Of a DNA stretch of 64,000 nt, positions 2,125 through 57,351 are shown piece by piece. Origin of the DNA: Escherichia phage vB_Eco_mar003J3; the sequence record NC_048203.1, one strand, 5' to 3'. The position numbers and the translations under genes are program-made. The notes below the pieces were generated by a model, which saw only the letters and a list, made by a program, of their open reading frames with translations, was not told where the DNA came from and made no database searches. The stretch's first letter is position 1. Each line of letters starts with the position of its first letter.

Positions 2125-2472
2125 TTAGAGTTCGTAACCCTGAATATATCGAGCAAAACCAGTAATCTCGAACTGAATTGCCCATGCTACTTCCATATGC
2201 TCAATCTTACTAAAATGAGCGTCAGACTGTTCTAGGAAATAACGAGAGATTATAGGGAACTCAATGTCAAAATCTTCCTTATCCATACCATAGAAGAAGT
2301 TTCCAGAAATATTACGAACTTCACGAAAGAAATCCTCAATCTGAAAATCCATCAGAGGATAAGTATATTCCTCTTTGCTATCATCCGTTTGGAAGAAGCG
2401 GAAATGCACAAGGCAAGAGCCAATCAGATTTACTGCTGGAGTAGTGTAAATATCCATGTTAACCTCGATCAA
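2125..2472 (-). CDS. hypothetical protein (115 aa)
   Basis: ORF, acidic. Confidence 0.45.
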   Translation of the reverse strand: MIEVNMDIYTTPAVNLIGSCLVHFRFFQTDDSKEEYTYPLMDFQIEDFFREVRNISGNFFYGMDKEDFDIEFPIISRYFLEQSDAHFSKIEHMEVAWAIQFEITGFARYIQGYEL

Positions 2473-2644
2473 TATCTAGAGAAATTCCAAATTCTGGATT
2501 AATACCAGAACCATTACATGCTGCGCATTCCCACTCTTCAAAACGCATATCGCCAGGTTCAGCATCATTAATAGTACCTGTTCCTTGGCAGTGAGTACAC
2601 ATGCACTCTTCTAGTTCTTGTTTAAGCTCTTGAAACTTAGACAT
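2459..2644 (-). CDS. small zinc-ribbon protein (DnaJ-type CxxCxGxG repeats)
   Basis: 61 aa; CTHCQGTG and CAACNGSG motifs. Confidence 0.5.
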   Translation of the reverse strand: MSKFQELKQELEECMCTHCQGTGTINDAEPGDMRFEEWECAACNGSGINPEFGISLDIDRG

Positions 2645-2661
2645 ATAGTCTCCTAGTTAAT

Positions 2662-2739
2662 TGGTGGCTCCCGGAGGATTCGAACCTACCTACCTTTCGC
2701 TTATGAGGCGACGGCTCATACCAAATGAGCTTGAGAACC
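2662..2739 (-). tRNA. tRNA, anticodon CAT (Met or Ile-lysidine)
   Basis: Acceptor GGTTCTC/GGGAGCC with two G-U pairs, D stem GCTC/GAGC, anticodon loop CTCATAA, TTCGAAT T-loop, CCA. Confidence 0.55.
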
Positions 2740-2744
2740 AAATT

Positions 2745-2833
2745 TGGAGGAAGAAGTGGGAATCGAACCCACAAGGCTATGTTTCAAACCGACAGATTAG
2801 CAATCTGCTGCAATACCGTTATGCTATTCTTCC
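2745..2833 (-). tRNA. tRNA-Ser (anticodon GCT), class II
   Basis: 89 nt; acceptor GGAAGAA/TTCTTCC perfect, anticodon stem GCAGA/TCTGT with loop TTGCTAA, long variable arm, T-arm GTGGG-TTCGATT-CCCAC, CCA. Confidence 0.7.
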
Positions 2834-3343
2834 TTAATTATTTCGGGCATATTCCCCATGAAGTTTCTCTCTCAGTTGAATTAGAGCTTCATTTGCTGCT
2901 TCAGGAGTACTGTGCAGCCCTGCGGAGTATGACTTACCTTTAAACATTATTCTACCCTGCCACTGACCAGATGCTTTGTGGTAGGATACTCCCTTAAATC
3001 CGCTAGTATTCCTAGAAGATTTACTAGCATTATGAGTATTAGTGGTACTATCCGCTGCTCTTAAATTTAAAGGATGTATGTTTAACTTATTGCAGTCTTT
3101 ATGATCAATCATTTCCGGCCTATACCCATAATATAGTATAAATACTATGATATGAGCTAAGTAATCTTGGTGATCAACGTTAACTCTGATATACCCAGAG
3201 CTTTTGTGCAAAGATCCCGCAGGTTTATTGGCAAACTTAGTATTAAATATCTTCTCCTCTCTGGAGTTTCCGGAGAGCGGATTCCACACCAGTACACCAT
3301 CTTCTAAACGGAATCTATAAAGTATAGACTCATAGTCTAGCAT
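2834..3343 (-). CDS. HNH homing endonuclease
   Basis: 169 aa; IDHKDCNKLNIHPLNLRAA HNH core; C-terminal SGFKGVSYHK...W.GRI AP2-like region. Confidence 0.75.
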   Translation of the reverse strand: MLDYESILYRFRLEDGVLVWNPLSGNSREEKIFNTKFANKPAGSLHKSSGYIRVNVDHQDYLAHIIVFILYYGYRPEMIDHKDCNKLNIHPLNLRAADSTTNTHNASKSSRNTSGFKGVSYHKASGQWQGRIMFKGKSYSAGLHSTPEAANEALIQLREKLHGEYARNN

Positions 3344-3376
3344 AAATAGTTCCTAATCTTCCAAATTTATGAATAT

Positions 3377-3405
3377 ATTATACAGAAAATTTCGGCATTA
3401 AGCAA
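3377..3405 (-). promoter_or_regulatory. T5-type early promoter (-35 TTGCTT, 17 bp, -10 TATAAT)
   Basis: Minus-strand reading; part of a roughly 60-bp cassette repeated through the early region. Confidence 0.6.
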
Positions 3406-3413
3406 GTGAAATT

Positions 3414-3710
3414 TTACTGAACATTGCACTGATATACCTGTTTGATACGTGTCACTGACTTCTTAGTTGGGTTGATAGAAGAACCCTGCCACCAACGTGA
3501 CTCTGAGCTAAGAATAGCACCAGGAACAGCCTGCTCTTTTGGCAGAACAATATCAAAACACTGTTCACCCATATTATCTTTAATGTGTGACCAAATATCC
3601 AAAGTAAATCGTTCTAACTTATTACAAACCTGAACTTGACAAAGTTCCTGTTGCGGAGCAGCAAATACAGAAGTAGATACTAGAGTCAGTGCAAGTACAA
3701 TGCGTTTCAT
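3414..3710 (-). CDS. secreted small protein with N-terminal signal peptide
   Basis: 98 aa; MKRIVLALTLVSTSVFA-AP signal-peptidase-I-type leader; several Cys. Confidence 0.55.
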   Translation of the reverse strand: MKRIVLALTLVSTSVFAAPQQELCQVQVCNKLERFTLDIWSHIKDNMGEQCFDIVLPKEQAVPGAILSSESRWWQGSSINPTKKSVTRIKQVYQCNVQ

Positions 3711-3740
3711 GTTTGATTCCTCTCTCGAATTTATAAATAT

Positions 3741-3769
3741 ATTATATAGAAATTTTCTATATTAAGCAA
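3741..3769 (-). promoter_or_regulatory. T5-type early promoter (TTGCTT, 17 bp, TATAAT)
   Basis: Minus-strand reading. Confidence 0.6.
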
Positions 3770-3786
3770 GTGAAAATTTCTGTATA

Positions 3787-3809
3787 ATAGCCCTCGCTTA
3801 GAGGGCTAT
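3787..3809 (-). terminator. hairpin ATAGCCCTC-gctta-GAGGGCTAT just after pnuC stop
   Basis: Perfect 9-bp stem; flanking U-rich run is weak. Confidence 0.4.
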
Positions 3810-3816
3810 AACTACT

Positions 3817-4509
3817 TTATTTGTTAACGCGTACAAAGTATCCTTTATAGGCTCCCATAATAGAGTTACCTAAGAATACTAGCCACATTGCTAGGATTGC
3901 ATAAGATGCACCTGTAGATTGAGTAGTTACAAGCCAAATGTACACAGTACCAATGTTAATAGCAATCCAGATCAGCCACTGCTCGGCATACTGCTTAACC
4001 ATAAGCCACATAGCGATCACACTACCTACCGCAGTAAATGCATCCAACATTGGGAATGGATCAGCCGTAGTAGCTAAGAAACTACCATACCCTAACGTGG
4101 CTACTGCTAGAATCCCTAGAGTCAGCAGAGCTTGGACTTTAGTCAGAATCTTAGTTGGAACATCTGGCAGATTACTTGGCTTATTTTTATGCCATAAGTA
4201 CATTCCATAAAACTGCATAGGAACGTAGTATAGCAGGTTTAGTGCAGCGTTACCATAAAGATCTGCGTTTAAAGCTGTAATACCATAGGTAAGAACACCA
4301 ACTAAGCCCCAAATATAGTTAGAAACACGTCCTTTAGCAACCAAAATAACACAAACTACGTTGGTTATCGCAGTAGCCCAATCTAGAGGTGTACCATTAT
4401 AGTTAGCTAAACTAATGAAGGCAACCGCTATGAACAGCCACAGATATTCCAGAGGTTTCCAGTTTTTAAAGTCATTTACGAGATAGTTAGTCATATTAAA
4501 ACTCTCCAA
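3817..4509 (-). CDS. pnuC: PnuC-family nicotinamide riboside / NMN transporter
   Basis: 230 aa polytopic membrane protein; matches recalled E. coli PnuC in the YGxYxW and PFPxLD...WLxWIxINI regions; 14-nt overlap with upstream nadR-like gene. Confidence 0.85.
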   Translation of the reverse strand: MESFNMTNYLVNDFKNWKPLEYLWLFIAVAFISLANYNGTPLDWATAITNVVCVILVAKGRVSNYIWGLVGVLTYGITALNADLYGNAALNLLYYVPMQFYGMYLWHKNKPSNLPDVPTKILTKVQALLTLGILAVATLGYGSFLATTADPFPMLDAFTAVGSVIAMWLMVKQYAEQWLIWIAINIGTVYIWLVTTQSTGASYAILAMWLVFLGNSIMGAYKGYFVRVNK

Positions 4510-5551
4510 CGTTAAAGTGATGAATCAGCCAGTCTACTGCGTTTACTGCTTCGTCCATACGAACTTTGTAGTCCGGGGAGTCGATGTACACAGTACGCCC
4601 TTCAGGGAACTGATTTGGAAATTCTTTCTTCATCTGCTCGAACAGTTCAGAAGTAATTGAACGATCGGAGTTAATACGTAAACCATCATCTACCCACTTG
4701 ACAGTGGGCGCTAGAACAATTACTAAATCGTAATGTTCTTCTTTTGCAATTGCTGTAACCACAGGGTTCTTACGATGTTCATAAAGTCTGTGGTAGAACT
4801 CAGTAATAAAAGCATTTGTATCCACAAACATGATCTTATTTGCAGTACGTTCTGCCTCAAACTCTAGCTCTTTGTGTCTGAACGCAATTTTACTATAATC
4901 TTCGCTGGTAAGCAGATTTTCGTTACCAACTAGATCAACTTCACAATACGTTCGACCATATTCTTCTACCCACGAAGTGTTGTATAGCTTCGCAAGGTAT
5001 TTTGTTAAAGTAGTCTTTCCTGAGCTTTCAGTCCCAATGATTACAACCCTACGCACGTAATCTTTACGAACTACGCTAGGAAGAAACTCCCAATACTTCA
5101 TAAGATCATTACGAATCATTGTAGCTGAGATTGGAACACGAGTCCGATCAGAATCTACAATATAATGACCAAACTTCGGCAGATATTTCTTATATTCTGC
5201 ATCATAGTCTAGTTCGCTAGAGAAAATGGTGATCTCAGGCAAATGTCCGTAATTTTCATTAAGGATTCTAGCATATTCCGGCCAACCATTCGGATATTCA
5301 GGAATATCATCTTCAATAGTGTACTCTACCGAAATGTGCTCAATATCCGCGTAAGTTTGTTCTAACCAACGAAGTCGATTCTTTAACTGTAATACTTCCT
5401 GATCACGTGTGTTCTGCTTATCCAACCAACGATTATCATGACTAACTACAACAATAACTCGTTCACACATAGTTGCTGCTGTGTTTATTAGGTTAATATG
5501 ACCACGCGTTAATGGTGCGAACTTACCAATTACTAGACCAGTCTTAATCAT
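4496..5551 (-). CDS. nadR: NadR-like bifunctional NMN adenylyltransferase / ribosylnicotinamide kinase, no HTH domain
   Basis: GKFAPLTRGH nucleotidyltransferase motif, then Walker A GTESSGKTT kinase domain; start moved to MIKTG (SD GAGAGGAA) because the ORF-track extension to 5602 contains the promoter. Confidence 0.85.
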   Translation of the reverse strand: MIKTGLVIGKFAPLTRGHINLINTAATMCERVIVVVSHDNRWLDKQNTRDQEVLQLKNRLRWLEQTYADIEHISVEYTIEDDIPEYPNGWPEYARILNENYGHLPEITIFSSELDYDAEYKKYLPKFGHYIVDSDRTRVPISATMIRNDLMKYWEFLPSVVRKDYVRRVVIIGTESSGKTTLTKYLAKLYNTSWVEEYGRTYCEVDLVGNENLLTSEDYSKIAFRHKELEFEAERTANKIMFVDTNAFITEFYHRLYEHRKNPVVTAIAKEEHYDLVIVLAPTVKWVDDGLRINSDRSITSELFEQMKKEFPNQFPEGRTVYIDSPDYKVRMDEAVNAVDWLIHHFNVGEF

Positions 5552-51632: not shown

Positions 51633-51667
51633 CCCCAGTGGATTATCCACTGGGGTTTTCTTTTACT
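51633..51667. terminator. bidirectional terminator between convergent modules
   Basis: CCCCAGTGG-attat-CCACTGGGG flanked by T-runs on both strands. Confidence 0.65.
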
Positions 51668-52931
51668 TAGAACTTCTTAGTGCATTAAGTTCTCTCTGCA
51701 TATATTCTAACTGTTCCTTATAGTCCACTATTTGTTTTTGTAGTTCCTGTACAACTGTGATAATATCAGCCATAACAGCCTTATCATTTACGTTTAGAAT
51801 CTCAAATTCTTTTCCATTATCATCTACAGACTGACCCCCACTAAAAACATAAATAGGGTCAATAGCTTCCATCTGCTGTGCTAAATACCCACGCTGGGGA
51901 ACTACATTTCCTTTATATGTGAATTCTACAATCCCTATTTGTTCAATTCGTTCCCACGCACCCGATTTCGGCAATTTAAAATTGTCTTTGATACGAACAT
52001 CAGAACCTTGAATAGCAACTTGCCCTAAAGGAGTATGCATTGTGCTGTCCGCTCGCATAGAATACCAGAGATTTATATTATCAGATCTTGTTAATTGCCA
52101 TGTATATTGTGCGACTCCATCTACAGTATAAATGTAGTTGGCTACCGTACAGTCAGAGTTTTCAAGATGGGATAACTTGTTATGTCTAACACCGTCTAAC
52201 GACTCTTGGCTTTTTAGCTTTACAATTGTAGCAGTGTATGCGTCAGAATTCCCAAAAAGTGCTCGAGCTACAAGGTTTGATTGTGTTTCTAATCCATTCT
52301 GTGGTAGTAAAGTCCCTGGTATATAAAGGTGTCCATTAGAATTAAAACGCATTACTGCTGTATTTGTTCCATGTGCTTCAACCCTTGCTTCGGTAATTCC
52401 ATTTCCAATTGCTGCTTGTGCGTAGAAATCTGCACTAAAGTTATCGGTAGCTCCTACTTTATACTTTGAACTAACTCTGCCACCACTTACTACAGTATTC
52501 ACTGGGGGTAATACTGCATCGGCATTGTTAACACTCCAAGAAGTATTTGCCGCAACAAAACCACCAGATGCACGAATAACCCAAACACCAACAAAACTAC
52601 GTGGCAATATGTTGTTTTTTATTGAATATTTTCCATAGACTCCATCACTGGCCCCAGCGTTAATTGTTAATACTGCGTTGTTTCTTACTCTGCTAAAAGT
52701 ACCATCATTAGGTAAAAATGTATCTTCAACTGCAGAATTATATCCGAAAGCTCCGCTTACAGCTTTAGGTGCTGGTTGCCAAACTTTTCCGCTTGTATCG
52801 TTTGCTGCCGTACCATAAATATTAGGTGCTGCCGCTTCATAGACACGCCCATCTTCGGAAGAATTACCACCATCACCACGCCCAAAAAGACTTAACGTAG
52901 AATTTGGTTGCGCACCGTTCCGGTCAGGCAC
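51663..52931 (-). CDS. L-shaped tail fibre protein, distal part with C-terminal intramolecular chaperone domain
   Basis: 422 aa; in frame with 53013-53888 across one TAG; GTG start without convincing SD; C-terminus parallels LtfA. Confidence 0.6.
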   Translation of the reverse strand: MPDRNGAQPNSTLSLFGRGDGGNSSEDGRVYEAAAPNIYGTAANDTSGKVWQPAPKAVSGAFGYNSAVEDTFLPNDGTFSRVRNNAVLTINAGASDGVYGKYSIKNNILPRSFVGVWVIRASGGFVAANTSWSVNNADAVLPPVNTVVSGGRVSSKYKVGATDNFSADFYAQAAIGNGITEARVEAHGTNTAVMRFNSNGHLYIPGTLLPQNGLETQSNLVARALFGNSDAYTATIVKLKSQESLDGVRHNKLSHLENSDCTVANYIYTVDGVAQYTWQLTRSDNINLWYSMRADSTMHTPLGQVAIQGSDVRIKDNFKLPKSGAWERIEQIGIVEFTYKGNVVPQRGYLAQQMEAIDPIYVFSGGQSVDDNGKEFEILNVNDKAVMADIITVVQELQKQIVDYKEQLEYMQRELNALRSSK

Positions 52932-53012
52932 ACGGAATGTAGTAGATCCGTTACCCGTTGAATACCTACCTCGTTTTTCTGGGTCAGCAAGCCATTCAGC
53001 ATCGGAAATAGG

Positions 53013-53888
53013 CTATAACATTTGAGCGTATGCCCACAATTCAGGCCAGTCTGCGCGATTTAGCAATTGACCATCTGATAAGACTTCATATGGTTGAATA
53101 TACGCACGACTATCACGAAGATGGAAATCACCAACGCCATAGTTCATTACACCATTCATTGTCGGGCCGACAGTGCCTGTATTTACAAGGTTTTGCACCC
53201 AACGTTTCGTCGCTGCATCATAATCGTTAACTGGATCACCAGACAGTGGGGTAGGACCTTGGGGCCTAACAACAGACCATAAAGCTTCCCTATTGGTTAC
53301 TCCTGTACCTCCCTGTTCAACAGATAATGATATCCACTTGTTTTCTACGTCACTATACGCACCCCAAGCACCTGAATTCTGAATAGTTAACCTTGAGCTT
53401 TTATCTCCACTATACACTCGAGTTTCTGTTCCAAATTCCTGGCTAAATCTATCAAGTTCTAGTGCAGTTTTAGCCCCATCTACAGTAGAAGAACCAGTAC
53501 CACCCTGAGCAATAGTAATAGCTTTGGTAAGTGAATTTAGTTCTGTAATATCGTTATTAGCACCCTTACCTGCTTTAGTATCTAGGCCAGTATTAATACT
53601 CTCAATGGATGTGTTAATACCACCCAAGGCAGAATTAATACCACCAATAGACTCGTTAATGCTACTAACAGACTCATTAGTATTGTTAATAGAAGTATCA
53701 ATTCCACTTAGACGAGTGTTTAATTCTTGCTGATCTATATTATACTTAGAGATTTGTAAGTATTTAGAAGTTAATACAACAGCACCAGCCTCTCCATCAA
53801 CAGAGAAAACACCAGCAACAGCAGCATCTCTGTTAACTACAATATATGGCGCCATTGCGCCAGATTTAGGCATTAAATTACGTGACAT
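53013..53888 (-). CDS. L-shaped tail fibre protein, N-terminal part (ends at in-frame amber)
   Basis: 291 aa; SD AGGAAAT; GGTG repeats; stops at TAG inside a tail-collar-like motif. Confidence 0.6.
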   Translation of the reverse strand: MSRNLMPKSGAMAPYIVVNRDAAVAGVFSVDGEAGAVVLTSKYLQISKYNIDQQELNTRLSGIDTSINNTNESVSSINESIGGINSALGGINTSIESINTGLDTKAGKGANNDITELNSLTKAITIAQGGTGSSTVDGAKTALELDRFSQEFGTETRVYSGDKSSRLTIQNSGAWGAYSDVENKWISLSVEQGGTGVTNREALWSVVRPQGPTPLSGDPVNDYDAATKRWVQNLVNTGTVGPTMNGVMNYGVGDFHLRDSRAYIQPYEVLSDGQLLNRADWPELWAYAQML

Positions 53889-54286
53889 AAGATTTCCTAA
53901 TAAGATTAGAATTACTCCCTAATCTCTTGTAAACTTTTAGAGTAAAGTGCGAGTCCCTTCGCACAATAGGTTATTATGGAGTATTTTTTATTTTACTCAC
54001 TTCTGTTTCAAGTGTGGACACACAGTTAACTAAAGCTAGAGCTTGATTTACTTCCGTAAGAAGTTTCTTAAGAGTAGTAATCCCTCCCTTTAAGCTATCA
54101 ATTTCTTTTGCTTACTGGTCATTTTCATCCCTTAGCTGAAGAAGAGCTTCATGGTGTAGTACTCTGTCTTTTCATCGAACATGATGTTGTCCGCATATTG
54201 CCGAGTTTGATCGGACTGTATACTCACAACATCCGCGCGGATGTAAAAACCTGCAACAGCATGGTTTAGGAGGAATCCAAATGGTG

Positions 54287-56929
54287 TTACTTTTGTAACA
54301 TCAGATTAACTAGTTCTTTAAGCTCTGCGACTTCTGACTTCAGCGTTTCGATTTCCGTATTCTTTCTCTGTAACTCCTGAACGACGGTTACTACATCCGC
54401 CATGACCGCGCGGTCATTTACGTTCATTATCTCAAATTCATTACCGTCATCACCAAGAGCGGTCCCCCCAAAGTAAGTATAGGTATCGTCGATATCAGCC
54501 ATTTGCTGTGCAAGAAAACCGCGCTGACGGATTTTACTTCCGTTATAGTAAAATTCCATGACACCTATTTTAGCAATCCTTTCCGCTGCGCCATCCCTTG
54601 CAGGAGCAAAGCTATTCTTAATGCGGATATCAGATCCTTGGATGGCGACGCGCCCTTCAGGGGTGTACATCCCGTTATCTGCTCGGATCGAAAAATATTT
54701 AATATCAAGACCTGTTACGTCCATCCTTGTTACAAACTGTTGTTGTGAACCTCCTGGAGATACAAGATAGTGATATATTTTTGTTGTGTTATTTTCGACT
54801 TGGCTCAGATAGTTGACGTTATCCGCGTCCGTCGACGATCTATCCGCTTTTTTTATGACCGCCGGGCCGAAAGCGCCATCACGGCCCGAAAATACGCGCC
54901 CCCGGGCTTCACTCTCACATGACATATTGCCATCAGAGTCTATCGCCAAAATAGCCTGTTTAAGTACGCCACCGATTCTGGATACTGCTGATATGCGAGT
55001 CACCACCACTGACGACCCTTTCGTCGCAGCCACGGACATCGACGCATCGGCGATATTAACGCCGTTTTCGGATAGTCGGCTAGTCAGCCACCCGCCCGCC
55101 GTAGCCCCCGCAGGTAGAACAGTCTCCTTATGTACGACCTGCAACGTGTCCTGGATATTAGGGTTAGTCACCTTTTCCAGAACCCAGCCACGCGTCGCGG
55201 CATCCATCTCGCTAACTGGATCTGCTGCTAATGGCGTGGCACCTACTGGGCGGACGTTAAGCCAAGCAGCGGCGCGGTCTGCGAGATCGCTCAAGTTATT
55301 TGCTTTCTTGAGTACATCTGAAGAAGCTGGAACTTCTAGGGCAGTTCTAGCCTCTTCTACTGTAGAAGCTCCGGTACCACCTTTATTTATCGGGATAATA
55401 TCTTCTACAGAGGCTTCTCCAAGTCCTAAAGCTGATCTTGCAGTCTCAATAGTAGAAGCTCCGGTACCACCTTTATTTATTGGGATAATATCTTCTACAG
55501 AGGCTTCTCCAAGTCCTAAAGCTGATCTTGCAGTCTCAATAGTAGAAGCACCAGTACCTCCTTTAGCTACAGGTAAAATTCCCTCAAAACTATCTGTAGA
55601 AATGGCAATATTAACAGAACCATCTGCAGAAGGTCCAATCCCATTAACCATAGTAATATACGGAATTTGTTCCTTAATAGCACCAGCGTTTTCCTCGCCT
55701 TTTGCAGCAGCACGGAATGCTTGACCCTGCATCATATCAGGTAGACGGAAAGTAGTAGTACCATTACCAGTGGAGAAATAGAGAGTTGCACCAGCTTGCC
55801 ATTGTTCCTCAGTAACCGAAGGGATTAAGCCAGCTTCAATAGCTTCCCAAGTATCTGGGTAGTCTACACGTAGAACCTCACGACCATCAGCAGGAAGAAC
55901 ACCAGGGTACCCAACGCCTGAATCCTTATCATAAGGGAACCAAGTAACTTCACCTAACCACAGAGAAGGATTACCACCAGGAAGAGTAATCTGTATGTTA
56001 CCTACATCATCTGCACGAACGTTATTAATAGAAACTATCTTTTGCTCTGCCTCTACTAACTCTAATTCTGGAGTCTCAGCAGTTCCAGCTACTTTGTACC
56101 ACCCATATTTTGAGTCAGTTTGGTTCCATACTAGGATCTTTTCACCTAGTGCGCGACTACTAACGTCAGTATCTGCTTCTTCTTTGGTCTTGTAGACTTT
56201 GATAAAGCCAGATATATCTTCTTTATCCAGTTTGCTATCTACAATCTGAGTAGCACGATCTGCCTCAGCTTTAGCACGATCTGCCTCAGTAGTAGCATCG
56301 ATAGCTTTATCGCCAGCTTCAGTAGCAGAACCAGCAGCATTAGTTTCAGAAATCTTAGCGTTTAGTTCTGATTGCTTAGCAGCAGCAGCATGCTCACCAG
56401 CAGTTGTTGCAGCAGCATCGGCTCCTTCTTTAGCAGTTTCTGCACCAGTTTGTGCAGTTTCAGCGGCTACTTGAGCTTGTTGAGCAGCAGTTTTAGCTTG
56501 TTCGGCTAGTTCTCTACTTCTTTCAGCATTTTGAGCAGCTAACTGAGCCGCATCTTTGTGTGTGCCGGCTTCTGTAGCAGATGCAGCGGATTCTTCAGCG
56601 CTAGCCTTAGATAATCCAGCTTGTCTCTCAGATTCCGTAGCAGAAGTAGCTGCTTGAGTAGCAGAAGCTTCAGAAGAATCAGCGTAAATAGCAGCTCTAT
56701 TTTCTGAGTCTCTAGCGTTAGTTTCAGATAATTTTGCTGCAATTTCAGAATCTTTTGCAGCAGCAGCTGAAGCTGCGGATGATTCCACAGCCGCAGTCAG
56801 TTCACCCGCAGTAATAGAACTGATAGAGTTACCTAAAACTACTGTATATTTAGGATACTTACTAGCAGTAGTTGTAGTATCATCTATGTTCAGAATCTGC
56901 TGTACAATAATTTTAGTTTTAAGTGCCAT
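54287..56929 (-). CDS. ltfA: L-shaped tail fibre protein LtfA-like
   Basis: 880 aa; Ala-rich coiled N-terminus, GGTGASTIETARSALGLG repeats, tail-collar-like STGNGTTTFRLPD, C-terminal chaperone-like domain. Confidence 0.75.
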   Translation of the reverse strand: MALKTKIIVQQILNIDDTTTTASKYPKYTVVLGNSISSITAGELTAAVESSAASAAAAKDSEIAAKLSETNARDSENRAAIYADSSEASATQAATSATESERQAGLSKASAEESAASATEAGTHKDAAQLAAQNAERSRELAEQAKTAAQQAQVAAETAQTGAETAKEGADAAATTAGEHAAAAKQSELNAKISETNAAGSATEAGDKAIDATTEADRAKAEADRATQIVDSKLDKEDISGFIKVYKTKEEADTDVSSRALGEKILVWNQTDSKYGWYKVAGTAETPELELVEAEQKIVSINNVRADDVGNIQITLPGGNPSLWLGEVTWFPYDKDSGVGYPGVLPADGREVLRVDYPDTWEAIEAGLIPSVTEEQWQAGATLYFSTGNGTTTFRLPDMMQGQAFRAAAKGEENAGAIKEQIPYITMVNGIGPSADGSVNIAISTDSFEGILPVAKGGTGASTIETARSALGLGEASVEDIIPINKGGTGASTIETARSALGLGEASVEDIIPINKGGTGASTVEEARTALEVPASSDVLKKANNLSDLADRAAAWLNVRPVGATPLAADPVSEMDAATRGWVLEKVTNPNIQDTLQVVHKETVLPAGATAGGWLTSRLSENGVNIADASMSVAATKGSSVVVTRISAVSRIGGVLKQAILAIDSDGNMSCESEARGRVFSGRDGAFGPAVIKKADRSSTDADNVNYLSQVENNTTKIYHYLVSPGGSQQQFVTRMDVTGLDIKYFSIRADNGMYTPEGRVAIQGSDIRIKNSFAPARDGAAERIAKIGVMEFYYNGSKIRQRGFLAQQMADIDDTYTYFGGTALGDDGNEFEIMNVNDRAVMADVVTVVQELQRKNTEIETLKSEVAELKELVNLMLQK
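55362..55541. repeat. 90-bp tandem duplication (2 copies, 1 mismatch) inside ltfA
   Basis: 55362-55451 and 55452-55541 identical except one C/T; encodes 30-aa repeat; degenerate third copy follows. Confidence 0.8.
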
Positions 56930-57351
56930 TATTGAGTTACTCCATCGCTGATGTATACTTTACCTTCCATAATACGGAAAGAACTGACTTCAGAGCCAAT
57001 TACATCACGAGTCATTAGGATATCATAATAACCAGCAAAACGTTGTCTTGGGTTATACTTATCACGTTCTTTAGATGCTTTTTCACCAATATTAGTAACG
57101 TCTGCAACGGAAAGACTAATTGCAGCAGCACCTTGAGCAGCATCAATAACACGAGTTTTAAAGTTAGCTAGAACCTCGGCGTTCTCATCTAAACTAGACT
57201 TAATAGTTCCTCGGAGTGAATATCCGGTTAAGTTAACAGGAACTTCTGTTGGTGGATATACACTGTCATCAACATCCATAAACTGCATGATAAGACCATA
57301 AGGTACTTTCTCATCAACAACAATATCAATAACTCGGTTTTCTGTACTCAT
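56929..57351 (-). CDS. tail collar / small tail protein (T5 p132-like by size and position)
   Basis: 140 aa; lies between fibre and pb4-like gene. Confidence 0.45.

What the first reader, a model, noticed from the sequence alone, without database searches (positions are those of the whole stretch)
53889..54286. 400-bp ORF-free gap between the two fibre genes with possible decayed coding remnants
Late-module genes are otherwise tightly packed or overlapping, yet about 400 bp between ltfA and the next fibre gene has no intact ORF. Minus-strand frames give short fragments (for example GFLLNH...KLFFS* and a heptad-like ...EIDSLKGGITTLKKLLTEVNQALALV...) that loosely recall the C-terminal end of a fibre chaperone domain, which would fit a recombination scar from a fibre-module swap. 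The resemblance is weak and may be chance. A perfect 16-bp palindrome ACATCCGCGCGGATGT lies at 54229-54244.
Basis: inference. Interest (0 to 1): 0.4.

Follow-up and report, generated by a model that had tools for sequence, protein, structure and literature searches.

The report
Probable fibre-gene scar between ltfA and ltfB
The 398-base stretch between the two side-fibre genes of this T5-like phage is real, non-coding and found only in phages carrying one particular swapped fibre tip; it is most likely the dead tail end of an older fibre gene left by a rearrangement, an ordinary by-product of how phages exchange host-recognition modules.

Summary
Positions 53889-54286 are a 398-bp gap between ltfA (54287-56929, -) and ltfB (start 53888, -). 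It has no credible ORF, the quoted peptides are there, and the 16-bp palindrome is at 54229-54244.

Relatives have only about 40-60 bp at this position (42-43 bp in four of them). The long gap occurs only in seven records: vB_EcoS-26175I-V, one of them deposited twice, and Citrobacter phage YZU-L1. These are the same records that carry this clade's own LtfA C-terminal module (residues ~446-880).

The "decayed fibre-chaperone end" reading is partly supported:
- One minus-strand frame (54171-54040, KDRVL..EALLQLRDENDQ*AKEIDSLKGGITTLKKLL) has coding-like codon usage.
- In a targeted test it matches the last 30-40 residues of intramolecular-chaperone (IMC) domains of fibre proteins. Its score beat all 300 dinucleotide shuffles, and the top hits all lie at C-termini.
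- It is followed by TAATAA, a hairpin and TTTACT, the same layout as the normal ltfA end.

The similarity is undetectable in database-wide searches. It is also not exceptional next to real 398-bp windows of this genome (8.5% score as high). No intact ancestor was found anywhere.

The palindrome as such is within chance, but its CCGCGCGG core recurs only once in 64 kb, in the ltfA IMC, and this is unexplained. Verdict: an ordinary mosaic scar, of low interest.

The parts
54287..56929 (-). ltfA, 880 aa. The N-terminal ~445 aa are standard Epseptimavirus LtfA. The C-terminal ~435 aa are a clade-specific receptor-binding and IMC module that ends with its own stop codon.
   Evidence: ORF. Pfam Peptidase_S74 match at residues 766-813, E=9e-6. 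blastp domain map. The 3' part is ~70% identical in DNA to Tls-like stf genes.
53889..54286 (-). 398-bp untranslated intercistronic gap, the finding itself.
   Evidence: Present only in 26175I-V and YZU-L1 at 99% identity. Relatives have 42-43 bp here.
54040..54171 (-). Best-supported pseudogene fragment: KDRVLHHEALLQLRDENDQ*AKEIDSLKGGITTLKKLLTEVNQ, resembling the last ~40 residues of an IMC domain. An in-frame TAA sits at 54112-54114, where homologues have a hydrophobic residue. A TGA lies just upstream at 54172-54174.
   Evidence: tblastn of 140 IMC C-termini: best 23.1 bits, reached by 0 of 300 dinucleotide shuffles; 8 family members score at least 20.5 bits. phmmer: 9.9 bits, and all top-5 hits lie within 14 aa of a C-terminus. 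Codon-usage log-odds +8.4, a value only 0.5% of out-of-frame windows reach.
53971..54033 (-). Same frame continued: LVNCVSTLETEVSKIKNTP followed by the double stop TAATAA (53971-53976). This may be a second coil fragment or the original gene end.
   Evidence: Best profile segment, 16.4 bits to IMC profile positions 107-124. p=0.03 against shuffles, but about 8-10% of real windows do as well.
54229..54244 (.). Perfect 16-bp palindrome ACATCCGCGCGGATGT. As RNA it forms a 6-bp stem with a GCGC loop and has no U-tract after it.
   Evidence: The fold is -11.4 kcal/mol with z=-0.8, which is unremarkable.
54402..54417 (.). The only other 16-bp palindrome in the window, ATGACCGCGCGGTCAT, inside ltfA (codons N-D-R-A-V-M of the IMC). 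It shares the CCGCGCGG core with the gap palindrome.
53939..53964 (-). Hairpin GTGCGA-AGGGAC-TCGCAC followed directly by TTTACTCT. It begins 6 nt after the TAATAA, the same stop-hairpin-TTTACT layout as at the end of standard ltfA genes.
   Evidence: Terminator-like hit in the pattern scan. -9.0 kcal/mol, z=-2.9. Layout compared with the standard spacers.
53889..53938 (-). Diverged counterpart (~65% identical) of the standard 42-nt ltfA-ltfB spacer: a weakened hairpin at 53902-53926 and the ltfB Shine-Dalgarno AGGA at 53895-53898.
   Evidence: Alignment with four relatives. Fold of -7.8 kcal/mol against -15.5 for the STG2 spacer.
51663..53888 (-). ltfB, 741 codons, interrupted in this window by an in-frame amber codon at 53013-53015.

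Best explanation
The gap is a vestige with no function of its own. It is probably the decayed 3' end of a fibre gene, namely the C-terminal helix and coil of an IMC domain, together with that gene's own post-stop hairpin. It would have been stranded when the distal half of ltfA was replaced, or when an adjacent fibre gene body was deleted.

Shown:
- The present ltfA ends with its own complete IMC and stop codon.
- The 398 nt behind it are no longer translated. Stop codons are shared by all copies, and 1-2-nt homopolymer indels are tolerated.
- The last ~50 nt are the diverged normal spacer and carry the ltfB ribosome-binding site.

Inferred:
- The gap is transcribed as part of the late ltfA-ltfB message.
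- ltfB is translated by independent initiation at AGGA-N6-ATG.
- The retained hairpin(s) may still act as a weak attenuator or RNA-stability element, as the hairpin in the standard spacer may.
- The remnant came from an unsampled, distant allele. It was either already present in the donor of the cassette or is much older than the clade.
For: Context:
- Relatives have about 40-60 bp here, mostly 42-43 bp, against 398 bp in this window.
- The gap co-occurs 7 out of 7 with the clade-specific LtfA C-terminal module.
- Homology to other phages resumes at 53898.

Former coding status:
- The frame-2 segment 54171-53983 has a codon-usage log-odds of +8.4. That is inside the in-frame distribution, and only 0.5% of out-of-frame windows reach it.

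Similarity:
- tblastn of 140 IMC C-termini against the gap gives 23.1 bits. The best of 300 dinucleotide shuffles gives 22.7.
- Eight different family members hit the gap, six of them at the same coil locus and frame. No control window outside the fibre 3' ends has more than 6.
- The phmmer top-5 hits are all at C-termini. Shuffled peptides reach the real best score (9.9 bits) in 1.5% of cases and place all five top hits at C-termini in 2%.
- The in-frame TAA sits where homologues have Leu or Ile. That TTA>TAA would be a single change is inference.

Architecture:
- TAATAA, then a hairpin, then TTTACT copies the layout of the standard ltfA end.

Non-coding now:
- Indels in the G/T run at ~54249 differ between the window, 26175I and YZU-L1.

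Precedent:
- The ltf locus is a documented recombination hot spot, including an ltfAB fusion in phage DT530 (PMC4728585).
Against: - No hit at database scale in phage genomes, IMG/VR, metagenomes and GTDB genomes, E. coli genomes and plasmids, or 5.8 billion proteins.
- A profile HMM of 117 IMC domains scores only 1.7 bits.
- Frameshift-tolerant profile alignment finds no chain of segments. Its best score is matched by ~8-10% of real windows.
- 8.5% of real windows reach 23.1 bits in tblastn.
- DNA-level alignment to the ltfA and ltfB 3' ends is at chance.
- Coiled-coil sequence is low in information. Several of the statistics were chosen after looking at the data.
- The upstream third of the gap (54172-54286) cannot be assigned to any frame or motif with confidence.
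Confidence: 0.6

Rival explanations
1. The gap is spacer DNA of unrelated or unknowable origin that was imported with the cassette. The coil-like translation would then be a chance product of AT-rich sequence. Any role is regulatory: a hairpin-based attenuator or terminator after ltfA, and possibly an internal promoter for ltfB.
For: - There are no significant database matches, and the profile scores are at chance level.
- The ltfB-proximal 107 nt fold better than shuffles, z=-2.3 with 1 of 200 as good.
- There is a terminator-like hairpin at 53947-53964 and -35/-10-like hexamers at 54018-53983.
- The gap is as well conserved between the window and YZU-L1 as the low-divergence background.
Against: - Promoter-like and terminator-like counts are not above shuffles: 4 against 2.8+/-1.5, and 2 against 0.7+/-0.9.
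- There is no Rfam match.
- The whole-gap fold has z=-1.8 only.
- The sequences compared are too close (~1% divergence) to show selection.
- This reading does not explain the coding-like codon usage or why hits concentrate on IMC C-termini.
Confidence: 0.27
2. The gap encodes a small protein or a small RNA that is still functional.
For: A 53-aa TTG ORF on the + strand and a 31-aa GVG-start ORF on the - strand exist. The 45-codon open stretch AKEID...NTP has coding-like codon usage.
Against: - The + strand ORF has a different length and end in YZU-L1.
- The 45-codon stretch has no start codon in the window.
- No homologues exist in 5.8 billion proteins.
- No Rfam family matches.
- The only Pfam hits are generic coiled-coil families below their cut-offs.
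Confidence: 0.05
3. The gap is an assembly or sequencing artefact, either a mis-join or an ORF broken by errors.
For: The 26175 records carry frameshifts elsewhere; for example, ltfA is split in 26175I. The only length differences in the gap are in a homopolymer run.
Against: The same 398-400-bp sequence, with the same stop codons, is present in independently isolated and sequenced phages from Austria (26175 series) and China (YZU-L1). Correcting the homopolymer does not open any frame.
Confidence: 0.02

Closest known systems
ltfA-ltfB branched lateral tail fibre locus of T5-like phages DT57C and DT571/2 (Golomidova et al. 2016, PMC4728585; Ayala et al. 2023, PMC10713586)
   Same: The gene order is the same: p132 collar, then ltfA, then ltfB. 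Both fibre proteins end in a Peptidase_S74 intramolecular chaperone. The locus is known to recombine readily, to exchange host-range segments and to produce fusions such as DT530 ltfAB.
   Different: In the relatives inspected here the two genes are about 40-60 bp apart. A 398-bp untranslated stretch carrying a possible dead 3' end was not mentioned in the passages of the papers I searched.
C-terminal intramolecular chaperone (IMC) domain of phage fibres and spikes (Pfam PF13884 Peptidase_S74; endosialidase K1F and T5 Ltf per PMC4728585)
   Same: The frame-2 translation resembles the last helix and coil of this domain (..AIQEL..EN..LK.EI..LK...LK.L..). It lies where such a domain would end, just before a hairpin and the next fibre gene.
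   Different: Only the last ~40-60 codons can be recognised. The part modelled by Pfam, including the cleavage serine motif, is absent. Two in-frame stops are present, and the similarity is not significant at database scale.
Mosaic-junction remnants and pseudogene fragments in tailed-phage genomes (general knowledge; not searched in the literature here)
   Same: Leftover sequence at the border of an exchanged tail-fibre cassette, confined to the lineage that carries the cassette.
   Different: Nothing distinctive, beyond the unusually GC-rich palindrome pair that flanks the ltfA 3' end.
Standard 42-43-nt ltfA-ltfB spacer of Epseptimavirus and Tequintavirus phages (SpoonbillGilly, DaisyDussoix, STG2, Ob_P)
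   Same: The last ~50 nt of the gap align with it at ~65% identity, including the hairpin position and the AGGAAAT ribosome-binding site.
   Different: Its hairpin is weakened, -7.8 against -15.5 kcal/mol. About 345 extra nucleotides, with a second hairpin-TTTACT unit, lie in front of it.

Membership tests
Peptidase_S74 / IMC domain (as a pseudogene fragment) | Match to the Pfam PF13884 model (N-terminal part of the domain, with the autocleavage Ser and the SD.R.K motif) | tested here: not met
   The reconstructed 106-aa pseudo-protein gives no PF13884 hit even at E<=10. LtfA and the ltfB C-terminal ORF give 26 and 32 bits. No SD(I/V)R(I/L)K-like motif appears in any minus-strand frame.
Peptidase_S74 / IMC domain (as a pseudogene fragment) | Similarity to the C-terminal helix and coil that follows the Pfam-modelled part | tested here: inconclusive
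   Better than all 300 dinucleotide shuffles in targeted tblastn, and only 1.5% of shuffles match the phmmer score, with hits confined to C-termini. However, the profile HMM gives 1.7 bits, 8.5% of real windows score as high, and nothing is found at database scale.
Peptidase_S74 / IMC domain (as a pseudogene fragment) | Position at the 3' end of a fibre gene, followed by a stop, a hairpin and the next gene | tested here: met
   TAATAA at 53971-53976, a hairpin at 53947-53964, then TTTACT, the same layout as at standard ltfA ends.
Intrinsic (Rho-independent) terminator | GC-rich stem-loop followed directly by a U-tract | tested here: inconclusive
   The hairpin at 53947-53964 passes the simple scan, but its tail is TTTACTCT (5 T in 8) and the number of such sites is not above shuffles. 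The 16-bp palindrome has no U-tract after it on either strand.
Sigma-70-type promoter for ltfB | -35 and -10 hexamers with 16-18-nt spacing, more frequent than chance | tested here: not met
   There are two weak overlapping candidates (9 of 12 matches) at 54018-53983. The count in the region is 4, against 2.8+/-1.5 in shuffles.
Known structured RNA (Rfam 15) | Covariance-model match | tested here: not met
   No match at E<=1 on either strand of 53700-54500.
Protein-coding gene | An intact ORF with a start codon, conserved in frame among relatives | tested here: not met

The most novel reading that the evidence does not exclude
The gap could be a stack of two or three fossil fibre-gene ends. 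The units would be KDRVL...LKKLL, then LVNCV...KNTP** with its hairpin and TTTACT, then the diverged standard TL.V.K end with its hairpin, each left by a separate host-range cassette exchange. In that case the rare CCGCGCGG palindromes that bracket the present ltfA 3' end would mark the crossover or cleavage sites, for instance targets of a phage-encoded endonuclease that drives fibre-module exchange.
Probability: 0.08. Interest if true: 0.45.

Novelty: new member of a known kind. Interest (0 to 1): 0.17.

Why it matters
It matters little beyond annotation. It does mark the right-hand border of a host-range cassette in a T5-like phage. It also shows that such swaps do not always use the conserved "last 45 nt of ltfA + spacer" landing site seen in relatives. 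That is useful for anyone engineering LtfA or LtfB specificity in Epseptimavirus phages, or using these phages (urinary E. coli and Citrobacter isolates) for therapy. If an intact ancestor of the remnant is ever sequenced, the history of the swap could be reconstructed.

Tried and rejected
Searches that found nothing:
- Homologues of the gap or of its conceptual translation: blastn and tblastn against 50,697 phage genomes; E. coli genomes; plasmids; IMG/VR; metagenomes and GTDB genomes; 5.8 billion proteins.
- These returned only self-hits or chance hits. The L006 match lies antisense to a real gene. L010 and L011 share only the 21-mer that was searched.
- Rfam gave nothing.

Alignment approaches that gave no signal:
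- A DNA profile of seven IMC 3' ends gave no hit.
- Single-sequence nhmmer gave E=0.17 at best.
- Smith-Waterman DNA alignment to the ltfA and ltfB 3' ends gave p=0.26 and p=0.77.
- A frameshift-tolerant profile alignment that I wrote myself never chained the candidate motifs (GF.I.ADV, KDR, the coil) into one alignment, even with relaxed penalties.

Readings considered and dropped:
- The frame-0 fragment (GFYIRADVV..LFFS) as the GFIAQDV or DRA motif of an IMC. There is no statistical support, and it competes with the frame-2 reading GCCEYTVRSNS of the same DNA.
- Purifying selection on the gap. The window and YZU-L1 differ by ~1% in the gap, the same as the patchy low-divergence background, so this is uninformative.
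- The region downstream of the Tls-like fibre genes as the donor of the gap. There is no similarity.
- The CCGCGCGG sites as T5-type nick sites. This was only a recollection; I found no usable consensus in the papers searched and did not pursue it.

Full report
WHAT THE WINDOW IS
The region is 99.8% identical to Escherichia phages vB_EcoS-26175I-V and 97% identical to Citrobacter phage YZU-L1, all Demerecviridae of the genus Epseptimavirus, i.e. T5-like. The minus-strand gene order is baseplate hub, straight fibre, p132 collar (56929-57351), ltfA (54287-56929, 880 aa) and ltfB (51663-53888). This is the two-gene lateral fibre locus described for DT57C (PMC4728585). Both fibre proteins carry a Peptidase_S74 intramolecular chaperone (IMC) near the C-terminus.

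THE OBSERVATION
- The gap is exactly 53889-54286, 398 bp at 38% G+C.
- Nothing longer than a 53-aa TTG ORF (+ strand) or a 31-aa GTG ORF (- strand) is open.
- The + strand ORF has a different end in YZU-L1 because of a 2-nt homopolymer difference.
- The upstream late genes abut or overlap.
- Other ORF-free stretches of 200-450 bp exist in the window, but in the tRNA and early or middle regions. None lies in the structural block after ~51.6 kb.

COMPARATIVE ANATOMY
- In SpoonbillGilly, DaisyDussoix, STG2 and Ob_P the ltfA stop and the ltfB start are 42-43 nt apart. The layout is TAA, five nt, a strong hairpin (TAGGGGAG...CTCCCCTA, -15.5 kcal/mol), TTTACT, AAGGAAAT, ATG.
- Kenya-K38 and HZ_ZJUN2 have 39 and 58 nt.
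- In those phages the last ~45 nt of ltfA, the spacer and the 5' end of ltfB are nearly identical even when the IMC upstream differs. This stretch looks like the usual right-hand crossover site for fibre cassettes.
- In the window, LtfA residues 1-445 are 77-81% identical to standard LtfA. Residues 446-880 are not. Their last 200 aa are about 50% identical to the fibre of Tls-like Drexlerviridae and to an LtfB-type IMC.
- Nucleotide homology to other T5-like phages resumes at 53898, ten nt before the ltfB ATG.
- The clade-specific block therefore runs from about 55590 to 53899, and the gap is its untranslated tail.
- The block and the gap are found in the same seven records and nowhere else.
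- The last ~50 nt of the gap still align, at ~65% identity, with the standard spacer. They include a weakened hairpin (53902-53926) and the ribosome-binding site.

IS THE REST A DEAD CODING SEQUENCE?

Evidence for:
1. With a codon model trained on 33 long ORFs of the window, one minus-strand frame (54171-53983) scores +8.4. That is inside the in-frame range and is exceeded by only 0.5% of out-of-frame windows, or 5.5% of stop-free ones.
2. I collected 129 representatives of this IMC subfamily by a full HMMER search with the LtfA IMC. I then compared their last 90 residues, plus those of the fibres fetched here, with the gap.
   - tblastn gives 23.1 bits (Tls Stf), 22.7 (P0118) and 21.9 (P0131), and so on. 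Six of the eight family members scoring at least 20.5 bits hit the same locus and frame, 54171-53992; the other two hit further upstream in that frame.
   - 300 dinucleotide shuffles of the gap reach at most 22.7 bits.
3. phmmer with the frame-2 peptide gives 9.9 bits. All five top hits lie within 14 residues of a C-terminus. Shuffled peptides match the score in 1.5% of cases and the five-out-of-five placement in 2%. The reversed peptide does neither.
4. The consensus alignment is EALLQLRDENDQ*AKEIDSLKGGITTLKKLL against KAIQEL..EN..LK.EI..LK.....LK.L. The in-frame TAA (54112-54114) falls where homologues have Leu or Ile, so TTA>TAA would be a single change (inference).
5. The frame ends in TAATAA (53971-53976). 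Six nt later comes a hairpin (53947-53964, -9.0 kcal/mol, z=-2.9) and then TTTACT. This is the layout of a normal ltfA end.

Evidence against:
1. No search at database scale finds anything.
2. A profile HMM of 117 IMC domains scores 1.7 bits.
3. My frameshift-tolerant profile alignment picks only an 18-residue segment (LVNCVSTLETEVSKIKNT, 16.4 bits). Its p is 0.03 against shuffles, but ~8-10% of real 398-bp windows do as well.
4. 8.5% of real windows also reach 23.1 bits in the tblastn test. None outside the fibre 3' ends collects more than six family members, against eight for the gap.
5. DNA-level comparisons with the present ltfA and ltfB ends are at chance.
6. The frame-0 fragment (GFLLNH...LFFS) has no support, and indels of 1-2 nt are tolerated inside it.

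I conclude that the middle and distal part of the gap (about 54171-53971) is probably a decayed IMC C-terminus, but this is not proven. I give it 0.6.

WHERE THE REMNANT CAME FROM
It is not a recent copy of the standard ltfA end, which would be ~90% identical in DNA to relatives, as the neighbouring ltfB 5' end is. It is also not a copy of the present ltfA or ltfB ends. It therefore derives from an unsampled, distant allele. Either it was already behind the cassette in the donor, or an adjacent fibre gene body was deleted. The window and YZU-L1 differ by only ~1% here, like the patchy low-divergence background, so nothing can be said about selection.

THE PALINDROME
- As RNA it is a 6-bp stem with a GCGC loop and no U-tract, and it folds no better than shuffles. 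It is not a terminator.
- One or two perfect 16-bp palindromes are expected in 64 kb.
- The unexpected point is that the window has exactly two, 173 bp apart. Both are centred on CCGCGCGG, a word with an expected count of 0.07-0.15, and even CGCGCG occurs nowhere else.
- The second lies in the ltfA IMC (codons D-R-A-V).
- The word is absent from the fibre loci of six other T5-like phages.
- The flanks do not align.
- I leave this unexplained. It could be a short patch of common ancestry, a microhomology used in the rearrangement, or a recognition site.

FUNCTION NOW
This section is inference. The gap is probably an untranslated intercistronic stretch of the late ltfA-ltfB transcript. ltfB would start independently at AGGA (53895-53898). 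The proximal 107 nt are more structured than shuffles (z=-2.3), so a residual attenuator or stabiliser role like that of the standard hairpin is possible. Promoter-like and terminator-like pattern counts are not above chance, and no Rfam family matches.

VERDICT
The feature is real and clade-specific. It is most likely an ordinary mosaic scar in a locus already known to recombine. Targeted tests move it to "probably real" for the heptad-like fragment only.

Noticed in passing
window 53013-53015 (ltfB, - strand): ltfB is interrupted by an in-frame amber codon TAG after residue 291. 26175I has TCG and YZU-L1 has TCA (Ser) at this position. The remaining 449 codons are intact, including the IMC. 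None of the six tRNA genes in the window is a suppressor. This may be a laboratory LTF-branch-loss mutant, a type reported to arise readily in DT571/2 (PMC4728585).
   Followed up: partly
window 54402-54417 and 54229-54244: These are the only two perfect 16-bp palindromes in the window. Both are centred on CCGCGCGG, which occurs nowhere else in 64 kb. They are 173 bp apart and bracket the 3' end of ltfA. The word is absent from the fibre loci of six other T5-like phages.
   Followed up: partly
window 55362-55565 (ltfA): A 90-bp tandem repeat, 2.3 copies at 96% identity, encodes GGTGASTIETARSALGLGEASVEDIIPINK units. It lies just inside the clade-specific C-terminal module, next to its border (~55590) with the conserved N-terminal half of LtfA. 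Related GGTG motifs also occur in LtfB.
   Followed up: no
L003, L004 and L005 (SpoonbillGilly, DaisyDussoix, STG2), ltfA 3' end plus spacer: The last ~45 nt of ltfA (AELAELKALVATLVNK*), the 42-nt spacer and the ltfB 5' end are nearly identical in phages whose IMC domains upstream differ. This looks like a conserved landing site for fibre cassette exchange, and the window's clade did not use it.
   Followed up: partly
window ~49590 compared with L002 1388-1897: YZU-L1 carries an extra ~510-bp ORF (ORF153, hypothetical protein) between the recombination exonuclease gene and D14, which the window lacks. HZ_ZJUN2 has an HNH homing endonuclease at the equivalent position.
   Followed up: no
window 56202-56801, 53002-53201 and 53602-53801: Divergence between the window and YZU-L1 is concentrated in patches (up to 32% in the Ala-rich N-terminal coil of LtfA) against a 1-3% background. 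This suggests further small gene-conversion tracts within both fibre genes.
   Followed up: no
L001 (MK907267.1) 2247-4893: In the deposited 26175I record ltfA is split into two ORFs and ltfB is not annotated at all, whereas the window's ltfA is intact. The public records of this phage series seem to contain frameshift errors or variants.
   Followed up: no
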